A stretch of DNA of 64,000 bases from Escherichia coli (GTDB lineage: Bacteria > Pseudomonadota > Gammaproteobacteria > Enterobacterales > Enterobacteriaceae), in NCBI RefSeq assembly GCF_013122565.1, contig NZ_CP053258.1; one strand, written 5' to 3'. Below are positions 11,001 to 64,000 of this stretch, in pieces. Under the pieces are notes generated by a model that was given only the letters and a program-made list of their open reading frames with translations, searched no databases and was not told the DNA's origin. The translations under genes were made by a program, and so were the position numbers. The number at the start of each line of letters is the position of its first letter. Within the stretch, counting starts at the first letter, position 1.

Positions 11001-11329
11001 TGGGACCCCCTTTTGATTTCTTGTTTGACACTTGCAGTTGCCAGACCGCAAGGTGTTTTAACAAATCAAAAGGGGTTTTAATAACTGGCTCAAAGCTGAA
11101 AGCTTTCCGGAACCCCCAGTCTAGCTGGGGGTTTTCTGTGCACAAGAAGAGCCCGTACGAAAGTACGGGCTTTTTTTTCGTATATTGCACACACCGGGTG
11201 CCCCCGCCCACGTCTGTTAGGGCGAGGGGAAATCGTACACATCAACTGTCTGATTGCTCAGTCAACAATCAAAATGCGCAAGAGAGTACAGAACATATAT
11301 GCGCTATCTGGTCACTTCCTGTAACTTCC

Positions 11330-12316
11330 TCACTTATTAAAATGCCCCCAACGGAAATACATGTCACATGCCATCATAAAATCGTTATGCCAGAGGAACC
11401 GACAATGGAAAAAATAGTAAATTAAGCACGGTACATAGCAGAGTAAAAAATAGGCTTCAAACCAAATCCGCCATTCCACAAGCGTTGCCAATACCGACAC
11501 CAGCGTAATCCACATCACTTCAATAACCAGCAATATGAATAACCGAAGCCAAAGCGGCTTGGCAAAAAAGGTCGACAACGCATTTTCACTGGAGAAAAAC
11601 AGATCGATTTCCTGCAAAAAAAGCCTGCCCAGAAAAGCGTACCGCTTGGAGAAGCGCAGAAAAAACAGATTAATCGCCAACACTACGCCACAAAGAATGA
11701 GCAATGCAATTATCGATTTAAACGTTAACCACTGCCCCTCTGTCACAAAAGAGTTACTGTTACGCAACGGGCTGATAGTAAGCAGGTTAACAACCGTTGA
11801 GATACACACCGAAAGCAGCACATAGCGAGTCAGACTTTTATATTTTACTTTTTTCGCTACTGAAATAGCGACCTGCTTGACATAACTGGTGCGGATCATC
11901 CGAAACAACAGAAAGATGACCAACGGCCCAAGTAACGAAATCAGGAACAGCGCATATAACGAGGGTAGAAGCTGGTATAGCCCCCAACTCATTGCACTCA
12001 ACATGATTAACGACAGAAATCCTGCCACCAGAGGTTGTGTAAGAAATAATTCTATTTTGTGGTTCTGCTTTTTCTTAAACCACGAAAAATCGATATTCTT
12101 CGTGACGCATTTATAAGCCCAGTACGCCTTGAGATCAAAAATAAAATTATACAGCACCAGGACCAGAATCCCACTAACTACACCAATATCCTCTGATGGA
12201 AAAGTAAACCCTGCATTTTTCCAATAAAAGCCTATCAGAATAAGTCCAATAGCATAAATGTATATCAGATTTCGTTTATCCTGAAAGCGAATAAAAGTTA
12301 AATAATCAGGAATCAT
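11330..12316 (-). CDS. ycdU: Polytopic inner-membrane protein, 328 aa (YcdU-like), last gene of the 17-gene array
   Basis: Hydrophobic multi-helix ORF; start overlaps stop of upstream FabD-like gene by 4 bp; size matches E. coli YcdU. Confidence 0.55.
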
Positions 12317-52587: not shown

Positions 52588-53652
52588 TTAACTGTATGCA
52601 TGTAGCGTACGTTGGCAAAGTGCCGAACGTACGCAATCCTCTTTACCGAATCGGACGATCCCGACCATTTCATCTTCTTCGAAACGTTCCAGTGCGTCAC
52701 TTAATCCGGAGCGCACGCCGCGAGGTAAATCGCATTGCGTGATATCACCGTTAACGATAACCGTCACGTTCTCCCCGAGGCGGGTTAAAAACATTTTCAT
52801 TTGCGCGGCAGTCACATTCTGCGCCTCGTCAAGAATGACAACTGCATTTTCAAAGGTACGTCCACGCATATAGGCGAACGGCGCAATTTCCACCTTCCCT
52901 ATTTCCGGTCGCAGGCAGTACTGCATAAAGGAAGCCCCTAAGCGCCGGACCAGCACGTCGTATACCGGGCGAAAATAGGGAGCAAACTTTTCTGCGATAT
53001 CTCCAGGTAAGAAGCCAAGATCTTCATCGGCTTGCAGAACTGGACGGGTGACGATAATCCTGTCGACATCCTTATGTATCAGGGCCTCTGCCGCTTTTGC
53101 TGCGCTGATCCAGGTTTTTCCGCACCCGGCTTCGCCCGTAGCGAATATCAGCTGCTTACTCTCAATAGCCTTCAGATAGTGCAATTGCGCTTCATTTCGC
53201 GCGAGGATGGGCGAAGTATCGCGACTGTCGCGGGCCATACCAATGGCTTCTACGCCGCTCATCTGCACAAGCGAGGTGACCGATTCTTCTTCACGCTGCT
53301 TATGGCTGCGCGAATCCCGTCTCAGCACACGTTTTGCCTCGCGACGAGCTTTGATCACTGCTTTTTGTCTTCCCATGGAGAGCACCTTGAGTTGTTTGTA
53401 TTCATCACACGCGCCGTTGGCAGCGCGATTATGCGCACGAACATCAGAGGGTTGGCTTCCTTGTAAGCCATAGTTTGCTTTTGGATAAAATGCCGAAAAA
53501 CGGCTACGCGCACCGTTTACGGCGTCGGTAACACATGAAAAGAAAGGATGAGGTTGAAAATGCAAAGTGACGAGATGACTACCGGAGGAGAAAACTCCGC
53601 GAGTGGTGGCGCGTTGATTATCTAAAACATGTCCAGTACAGGACGTTACCAT
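52588..53652 (-). CDS. phoH: PhoH, phosphate-starvation-inducible ATPase
   Basis: 354 aa; Walker A GEAGCGKT; PhoH-like domain. Confidence 0.9.
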   Translation of the reverse strand: MVTSCTGHVLDNQRATTRGVFSSGSHLVTLHFQPHPFFSCVTDAVNGARSRFSAFYPKANYGLQGSQPSDVRAHNRAANGACDEYKQLKVLSMGRQKAVIKARREAKRVLRRDSRSHKQREEESVTSLVQMSGVEAIGMARDSRDTSPILARNEAQLHYLKAIESKQLIFATGEAGCGKTWISAAKAAEALIHKDVDRIIVTRPVLQADEDLGFLPGDIAEKFAPYFRPVYDVLVRRLGASFMQYCLRPEIGKVEIAPFAYMRGRTFENAVVILDEAQNVTAAQMKMFLTRLGENVTVIVNGDITQCDLPRGVRSGLSDALERFEEDEMVGIVRFGKEDCVRSALCQRTLHAYS

Positions 53653-53801
53653 CCGCGATCTCCATAGTGACTGACTATCACTGCCGGGAACTTCCGCTGC
53701 TACTTAATAAGTACAACAGATCTCGCATTCATTGCAACAATATATTCACTTATATTTAACTATAAAACACCATTTTAGTGACATTAGTTTCTACTGGAAA
53801 G

Positions 53802-53819
53802 ATGACAGAGTGATGACAG
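53802..53819 (-). promoter_or_regulatory. Pho box (two CTGTCAT half-sites 11 bp apart) upstream of phoH
   Basis: Minus-strand reading CTGTCATCACTCTGTCAT; ~150 bp upstream of phoH start. Confidence 0.6.
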
Positions 53820-53876
53820 AGATGAAAAAAGCTGTGTGCTTTCAGCAGGATTCACATCAGGCATCAGTGCACGATC

Positions 53877-53985
53877 GCCGGATGCGGCGTGAACGCCTGA
53901 TCCAGCCTACCGACCCCGCACCGATTGTGGGCATGATAAGCAGCGCAAGCGCCACATCAGGCATCTGCGCACAAATGCCTTATCC
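53877..53985. repeat. REP/BIME-type palindromic elements between efeB and the phoH promoter
   Basis: gccggatgcggcgtgaacgcctgatccagcctac and a second REP-like palindrome ~53945-53985. Confidence 0.55.
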
Positions 53986-53996
53986 GCCTAAAAACA

Positions 53997-55268
53997 TTAA
54001 ACCCGCAATAACGCGCTTCCGAGATAATCATTCGCGTCCTTCACTCCCGGCAGCGCAAAAAAATAGCCGCCGCCGATAGGTTTAACGTATTCCTCCAGCG
54101 CTTCGCCATTGAGCCTTTTTTGTACTGTCAGGAAGCCTTTTTCCAGATCGTGCTGGTAGCAGACAAACAGCAACCCCATATCCAGTTGTCCGGAGTTGGT
54201 GACGCCCAGTGAATAACTGTAGCCACGACGCAGCATCAGGCTGGACTCACTCTCCGCCGTGCGGGGATTCGCCAGCCGGATATGGCTGTCCAACGCAATC
54301 ACCTTCCCTTCCGGGTCGCTGGCGTAATCAGGCACATCATGCTCATGCTGCATTCCCAGCGGCGCACCGGTTTGCTTATCACGGCCAAAAATCGTCTGCT
54401 GTTCTTTCAGCGGCGTTCTGTCCCAAAATTCCACTCGAAACTGAATCAAGCGTACTGCCTGATAGCTGCCACCGATTGTCCACGCAGGCTCCTGCTGATC
54501 TGCCGTTACCCACACCACTTTTTGCATCAACTTATCATTCTGGCTATCGGGATTGGCAGTGCCGTCTTTGAAACCCAGCAAATTAATCGGCGTCTCTTTG
54601 CCTTTACTACGCGCCGCGTGATCGGAAATAAACCCTTCCCGCTTCCAGCGCACACTGAGCAAATCCGGCGTGTGTTTGATGATATCGCGCAGCGCATGGA
54701 TAACCGTGTCCTGGGTGTTGGCGCAAATCTGTAGCAACACATCACCATGACATAACGCCGCATCCAGCGAGTCGTTGGGGAAACGCGTCATCTTCTGCAG
54801 CTTTTTTGGCATCTGTGGCGCAAGGCCAAAGCGCTCATCAAACAATGAGTGACCCACCGATAACGTGATGGTGAGATTATCGGGCGCAATGTAGCCGCCA
54901 AGAATGCCGGAATCGAGTGGTGGCAGGCGCGGATTTGGCGTTTCTGGTGCTGCTCCGCCCTGAGTCAGAAAAGCAAAACGCTGAGTCAACAAGCGAAACA
55001 ACCGCTCAAGATCGGCTTTATCGCTGGCAAGCACATCAAACGCCACCAGCATCATTGCGGCCTGTTGTGGCGTCAGGATCCCTGCCTGATGCTCACCATA
55101 AAACGGCTGTTTCTCATTGCGAGCATCCGGTGAAAGCGTACCCGGCGCACTTTGCGTTTTTTGTGCATGAGCGACCGGACAACTTCCCGCCAGCGCCAGT
55201 GCACCTATCACTTTCAGTAAACGTCGGCGTGACGGTTCATTCACGCCGTTTTCATCTTTATACTGCAT
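53997..55268 (-). CDS. efeB: EfeB, Tat-exported DyP-type haem peroxidase
   Basis: 423 aa; twin-arginine signal [16 protein letters not shown]. Confidence 0.9.
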
Positions 55269-55273
55269 AACGC

Positions 55274-56401
55274 TTAATCCAGTCCCAGCACACCGCGAAG
55301 TTGCGCCAGATCTTCCGCCAGCGCAGTAATCGGTCCTTTCAGTGCATTCCGGTCGGCATCGGTCAATTTGTCGTAGGTTTCAAAACCGTCTTTAGTACGG
55401 TATTTCGCCAGAATGGTATCGACCTTTTTAAAGTTGGCATCGACTTTTGCCAGCAGTTCCGGGTTGGCTTTTTGCAGTTGTGGACGCAGCAAATCGACAA
55501 TTTTCTGCGAGCCTTCAACGTTAGCCTGGAAATCCCACAGATCGGTGTGGCTGTAGCGATCTTCTTCACCGCTAATTTTGCTGGCTGCCACTTCCTCAAT
55601 CAGTCCGGCTGCGCCGCCGACCACTTTTGAAGGTGGGAAAGCCAGTTCACTGATGCGTTTTTGCAAATCGACCACATCGGTATAAAGCTGCTCAGCGTAC
55701 TGATCCATCCCTTTGGTGGTGTTGTCGCCAAACAATGCTTTTTCCAGACGGTGGAAACCAGTGAATTTTGGGTCGGCGGCTTTTTGCTCGTAATCATCTT
55801 CACGGGCGTCAATGCTGCCATCCAGATCGGAGAACAGTTCAGCAATCGGTTCAATACGCTCATAGTGCTGGCGCGTCGGTGCATACAGTGCTTTCGCTTT
55901 TTCGATATCGCCTGCTTTAATCGCGTCGGTAAAGGCTTTGGTGTCGGTCACCAGCTGCGTGGTTTCCGCCATGACATACGCTTTATATGCAGTAATTGCA
56001 CCACCAAGACTTAACAGCGCATCACTTTGCGCCGCATCCGCCGTTGCCTCACCTTTGACGATCAACTTCCCTTTCGGGTTAGTCAGCAGACCGCAGGTCA
56101 TATCGTATTCGCCAGGCTGTAAATTCGCCGTCATTTTCTGGCTAAAGCCAGGGGCGATATTTTCCCGCTCTTCCACCACCATCACGCCTTTGAGGATCTC
56201 CCACTCCAGCGCCTTCTGGCTGTGGTTCTGAATAATGAACTGTGTTTTCCCGGCGTTAACCGTAATGGTCATCGGTTCGCACTGCTTATCCGTCACGGTC
56301 ACTTTGACCTGCGGCACATCAGCGGCGTTAGCCATAAAAGCAGAAGAAAACAGCGCAGCCACGCTCAACTGCAATGCGTTACGGCGGAAGTTAATGGTCA
56401 T
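55274..56401 (-). CDS. efeO: EfeO, periplasmic iron-uptake component
   Basis: 375 aa, signal peptide, operon position. Confidence 0.9.
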
Positions 56402-56458
56402 GACGAGACTATCCCTTTAAAGTATGTTGTAACTAAGCAAGAGTTTGCGTCGTATTTG

Positions 56459-57289
56459 TTACGCGGAGCGAGACGCTGTCGCCCCTGCGCGTGGTGGCAG
56501 AGCAAATGCCACCAGCGCCGGGATGAGATAAATAAACCAGACGGCGACTTCGCTGACGCTCGGCGCTTCCTGATAGCCAAAAATCCCTTCCATCAGCGTG
56601 CCAAACAGCGAGTGAGTTGAGAGCACCGCACTCATATCGAAGGCGATTTCCTGAAAGTGGTTCCACAATCCGGCTTCATGAAATGCGCGAATGGCACCAG
56701 CTGCCAGCCCTGCGGCGACGAAGAGAATAAACAGGCTGGTCCATTTAAAAAATGCACCAAGATTGAGGCGAATACCGCCCCAGTAGAGCAGGAAGCCTAG
56801 CACCACGGCAGTAGCAAGACCGAGCATTGCACCCAGCGGCGGCCAGATCCCGACATCTTGTTGAAATGCCGCCAGCAGGAAAAAGACCGACTCCAGCCCT
56901 TCCCTTGCAACGGCAAAAAAGACCATCATCACCAGCGCCCAGCCATGATGATTTCCACGCTGCAATGCGCTATCGACTGCCTGTTCCAGTTGCACTTTGA
57001 CGTTGCGCGACACTTTGCGCATCCAGAAAACCATCCAGGTAAGGATCACCACGGCGATCACCGCCACGATACCTTCAAACAGTTCCTGTTCTTTTTGCGG
57101 AAATTCGCCGGTGGTTTCGTTAATGAAGATACCCAAGCCCAGGCACAACGCAGCGGCAAGCAACACGCCAATCCACATCACACCAATCCATCGGCCTCGC
57201 TGGGTACGCTTAAGATAGCTGGCAATCAAACTGACAATCAGCGCGGCTTCAAGTCCTTCGCGCAACATAATGAGAAACGGAACAAACAT
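56459..57289 (-). CDS. efeU: EfeU, FTR1-type ferrous iron permease, intact reading frame
   Basis: Two REGLE motifs (REGLEAAL, REGLESVF); uninterrupted ~276 codons. Confidence 0.85.
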   Translation of the reverse strand: MFVPFLIMLREGLEAALIVSLIASYLKRTQRGRWIGVMWIGVLLAAALCLGLGIFINETTGEFPQKEQELFEGIVAVIAVVILTWMVFWMRKVSRNVKVQLEQAVDSALQRGNHHGWALVMMVFFAVAREGLESVFFLLAAFQQDVGIWPPLGAMLGLATAVVLGFLLYWGGIRLNLGAFFKWTSLFILFVAAGLAAGAIRAFHEAGLWNHFQEIAFDMSAVLSTHSLFGTLMEGIFGYQEAPSVSEVAVWFIYLIPALVAFALPPRAGATASRSA

Positions 57290-57346
57290 GCCACCCACCC
57301 TTAAACGTTTTTCTGAGTCAATCTATGCAAAGAAAAGTAAATCGCA

Positions 57347-57365
57347 GTGATAGCGATTATCATTA
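57347..57365. promoter_or_regulatory. Fur-box-like sequence (tgatagcgattatcattac) upstream of efeU
   Basis: Resemblance to GATAATGATAATCATTATC consensus, ~60 bp upstream of efeU start. Confidence 0.4.
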
Positions 57366-57831
57366 CGGCAAAGAAAAACACAAGCGGAATGTTTATAAAA
57401 TGATGTTGGAATGTAAACAAAGAGAGGTAATGCCAGGGGATATAAACGATTATTCCAGGGTAGAAAGATGGGATTGTTTGCAAAGAACCATGTGTTCTTG
57501 CCGGATGCCGCGTAAACGCCATATCCAGCCGACAAAACTGTCCAGACTCAATGCATCAGAGCTTCCATGTAAAACTGATAAGCGGGTGTATCAAGCAATT
57601 TCGTCCATCCGCGATTATCAAATCTAACTTTTTGCCCGGAACATAATAACAGCTCGGGTGTTGGTGGCGTCAAAATCGCTGAAGCGTTCCCCGAAGGCCG
57701 GGACAGCAGGGGGCGGCGGCGATTGGCCGCCCCCTGCGCGCTCCCTGCACCATTCAATTTATATGGCGAGGCACATTAAGGGAGCGCAACCCGCTGCTGA
57801 AGCCAAACAAAACCGCCGCAGGCTAAGTCCC

Positions 57832-59340
<1,509 letters not shown>

Positions 59341-59528
59341 CTAAAGTCTCCAAAAAATTATTATCGGCAATGTCGAAACTTGCCGTTATATCTGCCACCG
59401 GAACGGGGTAACAGAGTTTATGTTTTACCAGGGCGACCGTATCCTGCCGGAAGCGCTGGTTATTCACAATCGATTTAACACACCATTTACATTAAATTTT
59501 AGTGCTCAGCGACACTATTTTTCATCAG

Positions 59529-59735
59529 GTTGCACTCTCTCACATTTTTTGCGGTTGCACCTTTCAAAAATGTTAACTGTCGCAGAGAAAAAGTCTGAGT
59601 TATTTTTTTAATCCCTGTCATATCGATTTCTTTTATTAACATTTCATTCATTTTTAAGCTTGCTACGCAAGTCACATTTAACATGGTTGCACAAAGTTGC
59701 AACATCGTGGATATTTCACGATAACGTTAAGTTGC
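59529..59735. promoter_or_regulatory. putP-putA control region with five GTTGCA PutA-operator motifs (59529, 59554, 59685, 59695, 59730)
   Basis: Motifs read directly; number and arrangement fit the described put operators. Confidence 0.6.
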
Positions 59736-59762
59736 ACCTTTCAGAACAACAGGAGTAATGGC

Positions 59763-62700
59763 ATGGGAACCACCACCATGGGGGTTAAGCTGGACGACGC
59801 GACGCGTGAGCGTATTAAGTCTGCCGCGACACGTATCGATCGCACGCCACACTGGTTAATTAAGCAGGCGATTTTTTCTTATCTCGAACAACTGGAAAAC
59901 AGCGATACTCTGCCGGAGCTACCTGCGCTGCTTTCTGGCGCTGCCAATGAGAGCGATGAAGCACCGACTCCGGCAGAGGAACCACACCAGCCATTCCTCG
60001 ACTTTGCCGAGCAAATTTTGCCCCAGTCGGTTTCCCGCGCCGCGATCACCGCGGCCTATCGCCGCCCGGAAACCGAAGCGGTTTCTATGCTGCTGGAACA
60101 AGCCCGCCTGCCGCAGCCAGTTGCTGAACAGGCGCACAAACTGGCGTATCAACTGGCCGATAAACTGCGTAATCAAAAAAATGCCAGTGGTCGTGCAGGA
60201 ATGGTCCAGGGGTTATTGCAGGAGTTTTCGCTGTCATCGCAGGAAGGCGTGGCGCTGATGTGTCTGGCAGAAGCGTTGTTGCGTATTCCCGACAAAGCCA
60301 CCCGCGACGCGTTAATTCGCGACAAAATCAGCAACGGTAACTGGCAGTCACACATTGGTCGTAGCCCGTCACTGTTTGTTAATGCCGCTACCTGGGGGCT
60401 GCTGTTTACTGGCAAACTGGTTTCCACCCATAACGAAGCCAGCCTCTCCCGCTCGCTGAACCGCATTATCGGTAAAAGCGGTGAACCGCTGATCCGCAAA
60501 GGTGTGGATATGGCGATGCGCCTGATGGGCGAGCAGTTCGTCACGGGCGAAACCATCGCGGAAGCGTTAGCCAATGCCCGCAAGCTGGAAGAGAAAGGTT
60601 TCCGTTACTCTTACGATATGCTGGGCGAAGCCGCGCTGACCGCCGCAGATGCACAGGCGTATATGGTTTCCTATCAGCAGGCGATTCACGCCATCGGTAA
60701 AGCGTCTAACGGTCGTGGCATCTATGAAGGTCCGGGCATTTCAATCAAGCTGTCGGCGCTGCATCCGCGTTACAGCCGCGCCCAGTATGACCGGGTAATG
60801 GAAGAGCTTTACCCACGTCTGAAATCACTCACCCTGCTGGCGCGTCAGTACGATATTGGTATTAACATCGATGCCGAAGAGGCCGATCGTCTGGAGATCT
60901 CCCTCGATCTGCTGGAAAAACTCTGTTTCGAGCCGGAACTGGCAGGCTGGAACGGCATCGGTTTTGTTATTCAGGCTTATCAAAAACGCTGCCCGTTGGT
61001 GATTGATTACCTGATTGATCTCGCCACCCGCAGCCGTCGCCGTCTGATGATTCGTCTGGTGAAAGGCGCGTACTGGGATAGTGAAATCAAGCGTGCGCAG
61101 ATGGACGGCCTTGAAGGTTATCCGGTTTATACTCGCAAGGTGTATACCGACGTTTCTTATCTTGCCTGTGCGAAAAAGCTGCTAGCGGTGCCAAATCTAA
61201 TCTACCCGCAGTTCGCGACGCACAACGCCCATACGCTGGCGGCAATTTATCAACTGGCAGGTCAGAACTACTATCCGGGTCAGTACGAGTTCCAGTGCCT
61301 GCATGGTATGGGCGAGCCACTGTATGAGCAGGTCACCGGGAAAGTTGCCGACGGCAAACTTAACCGTCCGTGTCGTATTTATGCTCCGGTCGGTACACAT
61401 GAAACGCTGCTGGCGTATCTGGTGCGTCGCCTGCTGGAAAACGGTGCTAACACCTCGTTTGTTAACCGTATTGCCGACACCTCTTTGCCACTGGATGAAC
61501 TGGTCGCCGATCCGGTCACTGCTGTAGAAACACTGGCGCAACAGGAAGGGCAAACTGGATTACCGCATCCGAAAATTCCCCTGCCGCGCGATCTTTACGG
61601 TCACGGGCGCGACAACTCGGCAGGGCTGGATCTCGCTAACGAACACCGTCTGGCCTCGCTCTCTTCTGCCCTGCTCAATAGTGCACTGCAAAAATGGCAG
61701 GCCTTGCCCATGCTGGAACAACCGGTAGCGGCTGGTGAGATGTCGCCCGTTATTAACCCTGCGGAACCGAAAGATATTGTGGGCTATGTGCGTGAAGCCA
61801 CGCCGCGTGAAGTAGAACAGGCGCTGGAAAGTGCGGTTAATAACGCGCCAATCTGGTTTGCCACTCCTCCGGCTGAACGCGCGGCAATTTTACATCGCGC
61901 TGCCGTGCTAATGGAAAGCCAGATGCAGCAACTGATTGGTATTCTGGTGCGTGAAGCCGGAAAAACCTTCAGTAACGCCATTGCCGAAGTGCGCGAAGCG
62001 GTCGATTTTCTCCACTACTACGCCGGACAGGTGCGGGATGATTTCGCTAACGAAACCCACCGTCCATTAGGGCCTGTGGTGTGTATCAGTCCGTGGAACT
62101 TCCCGCTGGCTATTTTTACCGGGCAGATCGCTGCCGCACTGGCGGCAGGTAACAGCGTGCTGGCAAAACCGGCAGAACAAACGCCGCTGATTGCCGCGCA
62201 AGGGATCGCCATTTTGCTGGAGGCGGGTGTACCGCCAGGCGTGGTGCAATTGCTGCCAGGTCGGGGTGAAACCGTGGGCGCGCAACTGACGGGTGATGAT
62301 CGCGTGCGCGGGGTGATGTTTACCGGTTCAACCGAAGTCGCTACGTTACTGCAACGCAATATCGCCAGCCGCCTGGACGCTCAGGGTCGCCCTATTCCGC
62401 TCATCGCTGAAACCGGCGGCATGAACGCGATGATTGTCGATTCTTCAGCACTGACCGAACAAGTCGTAATAGATGTGCTGGCCTCGGCGTTCGACAGTGC
62501 GGGTCAGCGTTGTTCGGCGCTGCGCGTGCTGTGCCTGCAAGATGAGATTGCCGACCACACGTTGAAAATGCTACGCGGCGCAATGGCCGAATGCCGGATG
62601 GGTAATCCGGGTCGCCTGACCACCGATATCGGTCCGGTGATTGATAGCGAAGCGAAAGCCAATATCGAGCGTCATATTCAGACCATGCGTAGCAAAGGCC

Positions 62701-63725
62701 GTCCGGTGTTCCAGGCGGTGCGGGAAAACAGCGAAGATGCCCGTGAATGGCAAAGCGGCACCTTTGTCGCCCCGACGCTGATCGAACTGGATGACTTTGC
62801 CGAATTGCAAAAAGAGGTTTTTGGTCCGGTGCTGCATGTGGTGCGTTACAACCGTAACCAGCTGCCGGAGCTGATCGAGCAGATTAACGCTTCCGGTTAT
62901 GGTCTGACGCTTGGCGTCCATACGCGCATTGATGAAACCATCGCCCAGGTCACTGGCTCGGCCCATGTTGGTAACCTGTATGTTAACCGTAATATGGTGG
63001 GCGCAGTGGTTGGTGTGCAGCCGTTCGGCGGCGAAGGGTTGTCCGGTACCGGGCCGAAAGCAGGCGGTCCGCTCTATCTCTACCGTCTGCTGGCGAATCG
63101 CCCGGAAAGTGCGCTGGCAGTAACGCTCTCGCGTCAGGATGCAGAGTATCCGGTCGATGCGCAGTTGAAAGCCGCATTGACTCAGCCGCTAAATGCACTG
63201 CGGGAATGGGCAGCAAATCGTCCAGAATTGCAGGCGTTATGTACGCAATATGGCGAGCTGGCGCAGGCAGGAACACAACGATTGCTGCCAGGGCCGACGG
63301 GTGAACGCAACACCTGGACACTGCTGCCGCGTGAGCGCGTATTGTGTATCGCGGATGATGAGCAGGATGCGCTGACTCAGCTCGCCGCCGTGCTGGCGGT
63401 GGGCAGCCAGGTACTGTGGCCGGATGACGCGCTGCATCGTCAGTTAGTAAAGGCATTGCCATCGGCAGTCAGCGAACGTATTCAACTGGCGAAAGTGGAA
63501 AATATAACCGCTCAACCCTTTGATGCGGTGATCTTCCACGGTGATTCGGATCAGCTTCGCGCATTGTGTGAAGCCGTTGCCGCGCGGGATGGCGCAATTG
63601 TTTCGGTGCAGGGTTTTGCCCGTGGCGAAAGCAATATCCTTCTGGAACGGCTGTATATCGAACGTTCGCTGAGTGTGAATACCGCTGCCGCTGGCGGTAA
63701 CGCCAGCTTAATGACGATCGGTTAA
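59763..63725 (+). CDS. putA: PutA, trifunctional proline dehydrogenase / P5C dehydrogenase / repressor
   Basis: Start at ATG 59763 (MGTTTMGVKLDDATRERIK, RHH N-terminus), 1320 aa; track ORF from 59697 is an upstream over-extension. Confidence 0.9.
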   Translation: MGTTTMGVKLDDATRERIKSAATRIDRTPHWLIKQAIFSYLEQLENSDTLPELPALLSGAANESDEAPTPAEEPHQPFLDFAEQILPQSVSRAAITAAYRRPETEAVSMLLEQARLPQPVAEQAHKLAYQLADKLRNQKNASGRAGMVQGLLQEFSLSSQEGVALMCLAEALLRIPDKATRDALIRDKISNGNWQSHIGRSPSLFVNAATWGLLFTGKLVSTHNEASLSRSLNRIIGKSGEPLIRKGVDMAMRLMGEQFVTGETIAEALANARKLEEKGFRYSYDMLGEAALTAADAQAYMVSYQQAIHAIGKASNGRGIYEGPGISIKLSALHPRYSRAQYDRVMEELYPRLKSLTLLARQYDIGINIDAEEADRLEISLDLLEKLCFEPELAGWNGIGFVIQAYQKRCPLVIDYLIDLATRSRRRLMIRLVKGAYWDSEIKRAQMDGLEGYPVYTRKVYTDVSYLACAKKLLAVPNLIYPQFATHNAHTLAAIYQLAGQNYYPGQYEFQCLHGMGEPLYEQVTGKVADGKLNRPCRIYAPVGTHETLLAYLVRRLLENGANTSFVNRIADTSLPLDELVADPVTAVETLAQQEGQTGLPHPKIPLPRDLYGHGRDNSAGLDLANEHRLASLSSALLNSALQKWQALPMLEQPVAAGEMSPVINPAEPKDIVGYVREATPREVEQALESAVNNAPIWFATPPAERAAILHRAAVLMESQMQQLIGILVREAGKTFSNAIAEVREAVDFLHYYAGQVRDDFANETHRPLGPVVCISPWNFPLAIFTGQIAAALAAGNSVLAKPAEQTPLIAAQGIAILLEAGVPPGVVQLLPGRGETVGAQLTGDDRVRGVMFTGSTEVATLLQRNIASRLDAQGRPIPLIAETGGMNAMIVDSSALTEQVVIDVLASAFDSAGQRCSALRVLCLQDEIADHTLKMLRGAMAECRMGNPGRLTTDIGPVIDSEAKANIERHIQTMRSKGRPVFQAVRENSEDAREWQSGTFVAPTLIELDDFAELQKEVFGPVLHVVRYNRNQLPELIEQINASGYGLTLGVHTRIDETIAQVTGSAHVGNLYVNRNMVGAVVGVQPFGGEGLSGTGPKAGGPLYLYRLLANRPESALAVTLSRQDAEYPVDAQLKAALTQPLNALREWAANRPELQALCTQYGELAQAGTQRLLPGPTGERNTWTLLPRERVLCIADDEQDALTQLAAVLAVGSQVLWPDDALHRQLVKALPSAVSERIQLAKVENITAQPFDAVIFHGDSDQLRALCEAVAARDGAIVSVQGFARGESNILLERLYIERSLSVNTAAAGGNASLMTIG

Positions 63726-63730
63726 ACAGG

Positions 63731-63760
63731 TAGCCGGAGGATGTTACAACCTCCTCCGGC
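63731..63760. terminator. Bidirectional hairpin (gccggagg-atgttacaac-cctccggc) after putA
   Basis: Read directly. Confidence 0.5.
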
Positions 63761-63764
63761 ATCT

Positions 63765-64000
63765 TTAACGTGGTCGAATCCCCTCAATAATAATCCGCTG
63801 CACGTTTTCAACCGTTTGAGTGAAAAATATCTCATCGCGCAACGTCGCGCCTGTCACCGCCTCCACCTGAGGGGCGAAATCGGCGTAATGTTGAGTGGAA
63901 GCCCAAATCATAAAAATCAAATGCTGCGGATCAATCGGCGCGAGTTTGCCGCTTTTGACCCAACCGGCAATCAGCGCCGATTTCTCATCAATTAATGCCT
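63765..64000 (-). CDS. rutR: 3' portion of a TetR-family regulator (RutR-like), truncated by window edge
   Basis: Hand translation of minus strand gives ...TGATLRDEIFFTQTVENVQRIIIEGIRPR-stop; convergent with putA as in E. coli. Confidence 0.55.
   Translation of the reverse strand, partial: ALIDEKSALIAGWVKSGKLAPIDPQHLIFMIWASTQHYADFAPQVEAVTGATLRDEIFFTQTVENVQRIIIEGIRPR

What the first reader, a model, noticed from the sequence alone, without database searches (positions are those of the whole stretch)
53802..53985. Pho box and REP elements in the efeB-phoH interval
Two CTGTCAT half-sites 11 bp apart sit ~150 bp upstream of phoH, and two REP-type palindromes fill the interval downstream of efeB. 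These are standard core-genome regulatory and structural elements, and they confirm the right-hand part of the window is ordinary backbone.
Basis: partly seen in the sequence, partly recalled or inferred. Interest (0 to 1): 0.2.

Follow-up and report, generated by a model that had tools for sequence, protein, structure and literature searches.

The report
Known phoH Pho box and REPs
The stretch between efeB and phoH holds the well-known PhoB binding site of the phoH promoter and an ordinary cluster of E. coli REP repeats, so it is standard chromosomal backbone and not a new feature.

Summary
On the minus strand, CTGTCATCACTCTGTCAT lies at 53819-53802. It has two exact CTGTCAT heptamers 11 bp start-to-start, 149 bp upstream of the K-12-type phoH ATG at 53652. 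About 0.0005 exact matches are expected by chance in the window.

The 18-mer is identical in K-12 MG1655. There, published ChIP-seq puts a strong PhoB peak centre 2 bp from its edge, and phoH RNA is 2.8-fold lower in a phoB deletion strain.

Between the efeB stop codon (53999-53997) and the box lies a REP cluster (BIME), 53989-53851:
- a Y-type REP at 53877-53910
- a Z2-type REP at 53927-53962, in inverted orientation
- a 16-bp linker between them
- two truncated REP remnants on the flanks

This segment has a median of 40 copies per genome, a capped count, in 5425 of 5426 complete E. coli genomes.

The interval is 344 bp, as in K-12, and collinear with it. Across strains the REP part varies in content and diverges about 7%. 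The Pho box and promoter are nearly invariant.

The feature is already known and of low interest. One side observation: the 5' part of the 354-aa K-12 phoH reading frame is dimorphic and frameshifted in about 37% of E. coli genomes.

The parts
53997..55268 (-). efeB coding sequence (423 aa), last gene of efeUOB; stop codon TAA at 53999-53997
   Evidence: ORF list; annotated efeB in K-12 and PapM-32-1 at the aligned position; 8 differences in 1272 nt from K-12
53963..53989 (-). Truncated, degenerate REP remnant (AGGCGGATAAGGCATTTGTGCGCAGAT), starting 7 nt after the efeB stop; left edge of the BIME
   Evidence: Sequence; strain EC958 carries a full Y-like REP at this place; part of the sub-threshold Rfam naRNA4 (REP325-derived) hit 53930-53988; shares the 13-nt repeat CACATCAGGCATC with 53853-53865
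53927..53962 (-). Z2-type REP (GCCTGATGTGGCGCTTGCGCTGCTTATCATGCCCAC on the - strand); its foot tetranucleotide reads GTGG on the + strand, not GTAG
   Evidence: 7 mismatches in 36 to the Z2 consensus recalled from memory; the K-12 orthologue GCCTGATGCGACGCTTGCGCGTCTTATCATGCCTAC is closer and keeps GTAG; folds as an imperfect hairpin
53911..53926 (.). 16-bp linker between the GTAG-side ends of the two inverted REPs (AATCGGTGCGGGGTCG on the - strand)
   Evidence: Sequence
53877..53910 (+). Y-type REP (GCCGGATGCGGCGTGAACGCCTGATCCAGCCTAC on the + strand; starts with GTAG when read on the - strand)
   Evidence: 2 mismatches in 34 to the Y consensus recalled from memory; 28 of 32 positions match the crystallised MG1655 y REP GTAGGACGGATAAGGCGTTTACGCCGCATCCG (PMC3479197); hairpin; Rfam naRNA4 hit 53848-53907, 34.8 bits, E 0.0003, below the gathering score
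53851..53872 (-). Truncated start of a further Z-type REP (GTGCACTGATGCCTGATGTGAA); right edge of the BIME
   Evidence: Direct repeat D1 with 53953-53986; sequence
53822..53852 (-). Conserved unique block AATCCTGCTGAAAGCACACAGCTTTTTTCAT between the BIME and the Pho box; it has a weak 4-5 bp hairpin plus a T6 run, and TTTTCAT is a possible weak third half-site at 10-bp spacing
   Evidence: Conserved in 7 of 8 strains even where the REP content differs; no terminator called by the scan; the local hairpin is not significant, z -1.1
53802..53819 (-). Pho box (PhoB binding site) of phoH promoter P1: CTGTCAT-CACT-CTGTCAT
   Evidence: Exact match; identical in K-12 at NC_000913.3 1084825-1084842; ChIP-seq peak centre 1084845, score 11, motif TGTCATCACTCTGTCATC (PMC10294691); 40-nt segment around it has at most 1 mismatch in 5234 of 5426 genomes
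53786..53791 (-). Candidate -10 hexamer of P1 (GAAACT), 10 bp downstream of the box; this assignment is inferred, not shown
   Evidence: Sequence; the 10-bp spacing is that of the phoA and pstS promoters (own knowledge); only 3 of 6 match TATAAT; the paper that mapped the start site (Kim 1993) could not be read
53708..53761 (-). Three TGTTA-like direct repeats at 11-bp spacing plus a distal one (AGTTAAATATA AGTGAATATAT TGTTGCAATGA ... TGTTGTACTTA); probable ArcA-P binding region overlapping constitutive promoter P2
   Evidence: Sequence; Park et al. 2013 footprinted 60 bp at phoH P2 with exactly this arrangement of three consecutive repeats plus a distal one (PMC3798270); promoter-like TTTATA-16-TATATT at 53766-53739
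52588..53652 (-). phoH, 354-aa K-12-type reading frame; the alternative conserved start ATG is at 53376 (262 aa)
   Evidence: ORF list; the K-12 annotation uses 354 aa, PGAP uses 262 aa

Best explanation
The interval is the ordinary efeB-phoH intergenic region of E. coli and contains two unrelated, well-known kinds of element.

(1) A Pho box. Under phosphate limitation, phosphorylated PhoB binds as a head-to-tail dimer to the two CTGTCAT direct repeats, which sit one helical turn apart. It recruits sigma-70 RNA polymerase to the phosphate-starvation promoter P1 of phoH, taking the place of a -35 element. A second, PhoB-independent promoter (P2) lies downstream and is overlapped by ArcA repeats.

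(2) A bacterial interspersed mosaic element (BIME). It consists of two inverted REP palindromes (Z2-type and Y-type) and two truncated REPs in the 3' untranslated region of efeUOB. Transcribed with efeB, the REPs fold into a long stable hairpin. This most likely protects the efeUOB mRNA from 3'-to-5' exonucleases and attenuates read-through into phoH. As DNA the cluster is a member of the dispersed REP family that the REP-associated transposase spreads.

Shown here: the sequences, their positions, their identity with K-12, their copy number and their conservation pattern. Taken from published K-12 experiments: PhoB binding and PhoB-dependent expression. Inferred: the position of the P1 -10 hexamer and the role of the REPs in efeUOB mRNA.
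For: Pho box. There is an exact match with 0.0005 expected by chance. The 18-mer is identical in K-12 at 1084825-1084842. The published PhoB ChIP-seq peak centre is 1084845, with score 11; for comparison phoA scores 20, phoE 14 and phoB 11. phoH RNA is 37,076 in wild type against 13,375 in the phoB deletion. Sigma-70 occupancy is more than 2-fold lower without PhoB (PMC10294691). Both half-sites are invariant in all 12 aligned Escherichia sequences, including cryptic clades and E. whittamii; only the spacer changes. The 40 nt around the box carry at most 1 mismatch in 5234 of 5426 genomes. The distance from box to ATG is 149 bp in every sequence examined.

REPs. The elements are extragenic and in inverted orientation with a 16-bp linker. 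The 175-nt efeB 3' region folds to -78.5 kcal/mol, z = -4.1, by pairing the inverted REPs. There are sub-threshold Rfam hits to the REP-derived naRNA4 family. Compared with K-12, the BIME differs at 7.3% of positions, against 2% for the promoter part, 0.6% for efeB and 1.2% for phoH. REP number differs between strains. Both are typical of REP clusters. The general REP roles of mRNA stabilisation and attenuation are summarised in PMC12306157.
Against: PhoB binding and regulation were measured in K-12, not in this strain. The spacer CACT is not the A/T-rich spacer of the textbook consensus. The hexamer 10 bp downstream of the box (GAAACT) is a poor -10, and I could not read the paper that mapped P1. 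PhoB dependence of phoH is modest, at 2.8-fold. No 3'-end or half-life data for efeUOB mRNA were available, so the REP function is inferred from the family. The single REP hairpins are not more stable than shuffled sequence (z -1.45 and -0.14). The Z2 REP in this window has GTGG instead of the GTAG needed for recognition by the REP transposase.
Confidence: 0.92

Rival explanations
1. The CTGTCAT pair is bound by PhoB but is transcriptionally inert, or it is a chance consensus match with no role at phoH.
For: Fitzgerald et al. found that most PhoB sites in E. coli have no detectable effect on transcription (PMC10294691). The effect at phoH is only 2.8-fold. The candidate -10 is weak.
Against: Those inert sites are mostly intragenic. 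This one is intergenic, upstream of a gene that is significantly PhoB-activated, and sigma-70 occupancy there depends on PhoB. An exact double heptamer is expected 0.0005 times per window. The half-sites are invariant across Escherichia while the neighbouring sequence varies.
Confidence: 0.04
2. The palindromes are a dedicated intrinsic (Rho-independent) terminator of efeUOB, not members of the REP family.
For: They lie directly after the last gene of the operon and form a very stable hairpin. A T6 run lies 25-30 nt downstream, at 53830-53825.
Against: The terminator scan found none. No T run follows the REP stems directly. The sequence is multi-copy in every E. coli genome and matches REP consensus sequences, including the GTAG foot of the Y REP. 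A terminator-like or attenuating effect of a REP is compatible with the main explanation.
Confidence: 0.03
3. The REP cluster is a currently mobile REPIN-type element, and its variation between strains reflects ongoing transposition by the REP-associated transposase and not decay or recombination.
For: REP number and type at this site differ between strains, from one REP to three or more. The two REPs are inverted with a short linker, which is the REPIN/BIME arrangement (PMC3479197).
Against: In this window the Z2 REP has GTGG instead of GTAG. Each base of GTAG is reported as needed for cleavage and binding. The flanking REPs are truncated. Both suggest decay. No transposition event can be demonstrated from these data.
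Confidence: 0.1

Closest known systems
phoH P1 Pho box of E. coli K-12 (Kim et al. 1993 J Bacteriol 175:1316, cited from memory and through PMC3798270; PhoB ChIP-seq in Fitzgerald et al. 2023, PMC10294691)
   Same: The 18-bp sequence, its orientation and its 149-bp distance to the ATG are identical. The whole 344-bp interval is collinear.
   Different: One substitution lies directly 5' of the box (T in the window, A in K-12, at 53820). One lies in a promoter-like hexamer downstream (TAAAAT against TGAAAT, at 53776). Binding has not been tested in this strain.
E. coli REP / BIME family (Y and Z2 palindromic units; BIME-2 type by my recollection of the Gilson/Bachellier classification)
   Same: It has extragenic imperfect palindromes of 34-36 nt in alternating orientation with a short linker, it is multi-copy, and the Y unit has the GTAG foot.
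   Different: The Z2 unit in this window has diverged at 4 stem positions and in the GTAG foot (GTGG) compared with K-12. Only 2 of 5487 records have this 143-bp version at 99% identity or more. The BIME-2 subtype assignment and gyrase binding were not tested.
naRNA4 / REP325 (Rfam RF02564)
   Same: It is a REP-derived hairpin. Both REPs give partial matches, at 34.8 and 22 bits.
   Different: Both scores are well below the family's gathering score of 59.5. This is resemblance through shared REP sequence, not membership in that RNA family.

Membership tests
Pho box (PhoB binding site) | Two 7-bp direct repeats close to CTGTCAT with 11-bp periodicity | tested here: met
   Both heptamers are exact, at 53819-53813 and 53808-53802
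Pho box (PhoB binding site) | A/T-rich 4-bp spacer between the repeats (a consensus preference, not an absolute requirement) | tested here: inconclusive
   The spacer is CACT, with 2 of 4 positions A/T. It is the same in the PhoB-bound K-12 site, and bound sites in PMC10294691 Table 1 show varied spacers
Pho box (PhoB binding site) | Located about 10 bp upstream of a -10 hexamer, replacing the -35 element | tested here: inconclusive
   GAAACT lies 10 bp downstream and matches TATAAT at 3 of 6 positions.
Pho box (PhoB binding site) | Bound by PhoB in vivo or in vitro, with PhoB-dependent expression of the downstream gene | not testable with these tools
   Published for the identical K-12 sequence: ChIP-seq peak centre 2 bp from the site edge, 2.8-fold lower phoH RNA in the phoB deletion
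REP (repetitive extragenic palindrome); criteria i-v of PMC12306157 | Extragenic location, transcribed with a flanking gene | tested here: met
   The REPs lie between the efeB stop (53997) and the phoH promoter. Transcription was not tested
REP (repetitive extragenic palindrome) | Short (14-40 nt) imperfect palindrome that forms a stem-loop | tested here: met
   The 34- and 36-nt units fold as bulged hairpins. The pair forms a long hairpin at -78.5 kcal/mol, z -4.1
REP (repetitive extragenic palindrome) | Shares the family consensus motif | tested here: met
   Y unit: 32 of 34 to the consensus and 28 of 32 to the crystallised MG1655 REP. Z2 unit: 29 of 36. The consensus sequences were recalled from memory
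REP (repetitive extragenic palindrome) | Many copies per genome | tested here: met
A further Y-type copy is at 57500-57533 in the window
REP (repetitive extragenic palindrome) | Conserved GTAG tetranucleotide at the foot of the hairpin (needed by the REP-associated transposase) | tested here: met
   Met for the Y unit (GTAG at 53910-53907, - strand). Not met for the Z2 unit in this window (GTGG at 53927-53930, + strand), which is GTAG in K-12
BIME (bacterial interspersed mosaic element) | Two or more REPs in alternating orientation separated by linker motifs | tested here: met
   The order is remnant, Z2 (-), 16-bp linker, Y (+), remnant
BIME (bacterial interspersed mosaic element) | Subtype-specific protein binding (IHF for BIME-1, DNA gyrase for BIME-2) | not testable with these tools
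   By eye there is no IHF-like consensus in the 16-bp linker. Nothing else could be tested

The most novel reading that the evidence does not exclude
The evidence does not exclude that natural variation around this fixed Pho box has regulatory consequences. Two kinds of variation could matter. First, the strain-specific REP content between efeB and the box could set how much iron- and acid-controlled efeUOB transcription reads through into phoH. Second, the two haplotypes of the phoH 5' region determine whether PhoB-driven P1 transcripts encode a 354-aa protein or carry a roughly 400-nt leader with a conserved 38-codon upstream ORF before a 262-aa PhoH. The first haplotype, the K-12 type present here, has an open 354-aa frame. 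The second is frameshifted and is seen in about 37% of genomes.
Probability: 0.12. Interest if true: 0.3.

Novelty: already known. Interest (0 to 1): 0.07.

Why it matters
It matters mainly as a negative result. This part of the window is ordinary, conserved E. coli backbone with textbook elements, so attention can go to the accessory islands in the left 44 kb of the window. It also serves as a positive control for the scan.

Tried and rejected
- **Intrinsic terminator.** The scan of 53500-54100 found none. The small GCTG...CAGC-T6 hairpin at 53822-53850 is not significant. I therefore rejected a dedicated terminator.
- **Known RNA families.** An Rfam search at a permissive threshold gave only sub-threshold REP-derived naRNA4 hits and a meaningless BSnc120 hit. 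There is no known sRNA or riboswitch.
- **P1/P2 mapping paper.** Kim et al. 1993 (PMC193217) is not held, so the P1 -10 and start site remain inferred.
- **Cross-genus conservation.** I scanned 100,044 species genomes for CTGTCATNNNNCTGTCATCTTT. Of 33 loci, only the four Escherichia loci carry phoH or efeB next to the match. The Pantoea, Enterobacter and Siccibacter matches are other sites. Cross-genus conservation of this exact box was therefore not shown, and I rely on the motif-based analysis of Fitzgerald et al.
- **Source strain.** I assumed at first that the window was strain PapM-32-1, which is 100% identical over 53600-54050. This was wrong. Overall identity is 98.4% over 11144-57424, and the first 11 kb differ.
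- **Compensatory changes in the Z2 stem.** The four substitutions against K-12 shift the pairing register and do not preserve pairs, so no case for selection on structure can be made.

Full report
**What is there**

The finding lies in the 344-bp interval between two minus-strand genes. efeB occupies 53997-55268, with its stop TAA at 53999-53997. phoH occupies 52588-53652. K-12 MG1655 has the same gene order and an interval of the same length. The two intervals align without gaps and differ at 15 positions.

**The Pho box**

On the gene strand the sequence CTGTCAT-CACT-CTGTCAT runs from 53819 to 53802. Both heptamers are exact and lie 11 bp apart start-to-start. It is the only exact match to CTGTCATNNNNCTGTCAT in the window. 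Base composition predicts 0.0005 such matches. Even with two mismatches allowed, only 0.37 are expected. Single CTGTCAT heptamers occur 12 times against about 8 expected, so it is the pairing that is significant and not the heptamer alone.

The box ends 149 bp upstream of the ATG at 53652. This distance was the same in all twelve Escherichia sequences examined.

The same 18-mer lies at NC_000913.3 1084825-1084842. Fitzgerald et al. 2023 (PMC10294691) report the following for K-12:
- The PhoB ChIP-seq peak centre is at 1084845, 2 bp beyond the site.
- The enrichment score is 11; for comparison phoA scores 20, phoE 14 and phoB 11.
- The motif call is TGTCATCACTCTGTCATC.
- phoH RNA is 37,076 in wild type against 13,375 in a phoB deletion, a significant difference.
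- Sigma-70 occupancy is more than 2-fold lower without PhoB.

This is therefore the established PhoB site of the phoH P1 promoter.

In eight aligned strains the two half-sites never vary. One divergent strain changes only a spacer base. The same holds in cryptic-clade Escherichia and E. whittamii. A 40-nt query around the box finds 5234 of 5426 complete genomes with at most one mismatch.

**How the box most likely works**

This follows established knowledge of PhoB. A phosphorylated PhoB dimer binds head-to-tail to the two repeats and contacts sigma-70 in place of a -35 element.

The step I could not verify is the promoter geometry. The hexamer 10 bp downstream is GAAACT, a weak -10. I could not read the paper that mapped P1 and P2.

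Further downstream, at 53761-53708, lie three TGTTA-like repeats at 11-bp spacing and a fourth about two turns away. Park et al. 2013 footprinted exactly this arrangement with ArcA-P at phoH P2 (PMC3798270). A promoter-like TTTATA-16-TATATT overlaps it.

**The REPs**

Between the efeB stop and the box, 53989-53851 is a REP cluster with these parts:
- **Y-type REP, 53877-53910.** It has 2 mismatches in 34 to the Y consensus as I recall it. It matches the crystallised MG1655 y REP (PMC3479197) at 28 of 32 positions, including its GTAG foot.
- **Z2-type REP, 53927-53962.** It is in the opposite orientation and has 7 mismatches in 36.
- **Linker.** Sixteen base pairs separate the GTAG-side ends of the two REPs.
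- **Truncated REP remnants on both flanks.** They share a 13-nt repeat. In strain EC958 the left remnant is a full REP.

Evidence that these belong to the dispersed REP family:
- The 143-bp segment matches 24 to 78 places per genome in 5425 of 5426 genomes.
- Rfam gives sub-threshold matches to naRNA4, a REP-derived family.
- The 175-nt RNA after efeB folds into one long hairpin by pairing the inverted REPs, at -78.5 kcal/mol and z = -4.1. The single REPs are ordinary bulged hairpins.
- No intrinsic terminator is predicted.

All five REP criteria listed in PMC12306157 are met, except that transcription was not tested.

**Evolutionary pattern**

| Segment | Difference from K-12 |
|---|---|
| BIME | 7.3% |
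| Box and promoter part | about 2% |
| efeB | 0.6% |
| phoH | 1.2% |

REP content at this site ranges from one REP (strain 2013C-4974) to three or more (EC958, EC596), and strain 98203 has a different set altogether. Only 2 of 5487 records carry this window's 143-bp version at 99% identity or more.

In this window the Z2 REP has GTGG where K-12 has GTAG. Each base of GTAG is reported as necessary for the REP-associated transposase, so this copy is probably decaying.

The likely function of the cluster is inferred from the family and was not tested. It would protect the efeUOB mRNA 3' end and attenuate read-through into phoH.

**Backbone claim**

- The junction is found in 5417 of 5426 genomes.
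- 56400-64000 (efeU, putP, putA, rutR) is found in 5418 genomes at 80% coverage or more.
- By contrast, 1-12000 is covered at 80% or more in only 3 genomes and carries an integrase, IS elements and a YfjI-family gene.
- From annotation of the 98.4%-identical strain PapM-32-1, about 11-44 kb holds accessory clusters next to a tRNA-Ser gene.

**Verdict**

Both elements are already known, and interest is low.

The one thing worth recording lies outside the finding. The first 183 nt of the 354-aa K-12 phoH frame exist in two haplotypes. About 37% of complete genomes (1991 of 5417) have a version that is 80-90% identical and one base shorter. This stops the long frame after 98 codons. PGAP starts phoH at the internal ATG (53376, 262 aa) in all three PGAP-annotated genomes inspected. 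The roughly 110 nt before that ATG are invariant across Escherichia.

Noticed in passing
window 53376-53652 (- strand), phoH 5' part: The N-terminal 92 codons of the K-12-type 354-aa phoH frame are not conserved as coding sequence. 1991 of 5417 E. coli genomes carry a haplotype that is 80-90% identical and 1 nt shorter, and the long frame then stops after 98 codons, out of frame with the PhoH core. PGAP starts phoH at the internal ATG (53376, 262 aa) in all three PGAP-annotated genomes inspected. The window carries the K-12 type.
   Followed up: partly
window 53376-53490 (- strand): The roughly 110 nt just upstream of the internal phoH ATG are identical in E. coli, cryptic clades and E. whittamii, while the sequence before them varies. 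In another frame they hold a 38-codon ORF (MAYKEANPLMFVRIIALPTARVMNTNNSRCSPWEDKKQ) whose end overlaps the internal ATG. This could be a leader peptide or a leader RNA element.
   Followed up: no
window 53708-53761 (- strand): Three TGTTA-like direct repeats at 11-bp spacing and a fourth about two turns away lie between the Pho box and the ATG. This matches the ArcA-P footprint architecture published for phoH P2 (PMC3798270). Two substitutions against K-12 fall inside the repeats, at 53747 and 53730.
   Followed up: partly
window 57500-57533 (+ strand): Another Y-type REP (GCCGGATGCCGCGTAAACGCCATATCCAGCCGAC, 5 mismatches to the consensus) lies upstream of efeU.
   Followed up: no
window 57424-57831: The efeU-putP spacer is variable. 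The otherwise 98%-identical strain PapM-32-1 has about 2.1 kb more here, including a 442-aa hypothetical gene.
   Followed up: no
window 1-11143: This is a rare accessory island with an integrase, ISL3, IS3 and IS256 transposases and a YfjI-family gene. Only 3 of 5426 complete E. coli genomes cover 80% or more of it, two of them from baboons. It is absent from PapM-32-1 at this position.
   Followed up: partly
window about 11300-44000: Accessory clusters lie next to a tRNA-Ser gene, judged from annotation of the 98.4%-identical PapM-32-1: a fatty-acid/polyketide-like cluster (ketoacyl synthases, ACP, FabZ-like dehydratase, ABC transporter, LolA-like protein) that resembles an aryl-polyene cluster by my recollection, a two-partner secretion pair (filamentous haemagglutinin-like protein and ShlB-type transporter), a chaperone-usher fimbrial operon, and EAL and GGDEF genes.
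   Followed up: no
L009 (strain EC596), downstream of the phoH ATG: In this divergent strain an IS3-family transposase is inserted in the 5' part of the long phoH frame, and the efeB-phoH interval holds an extra REP.
   Followed up: no
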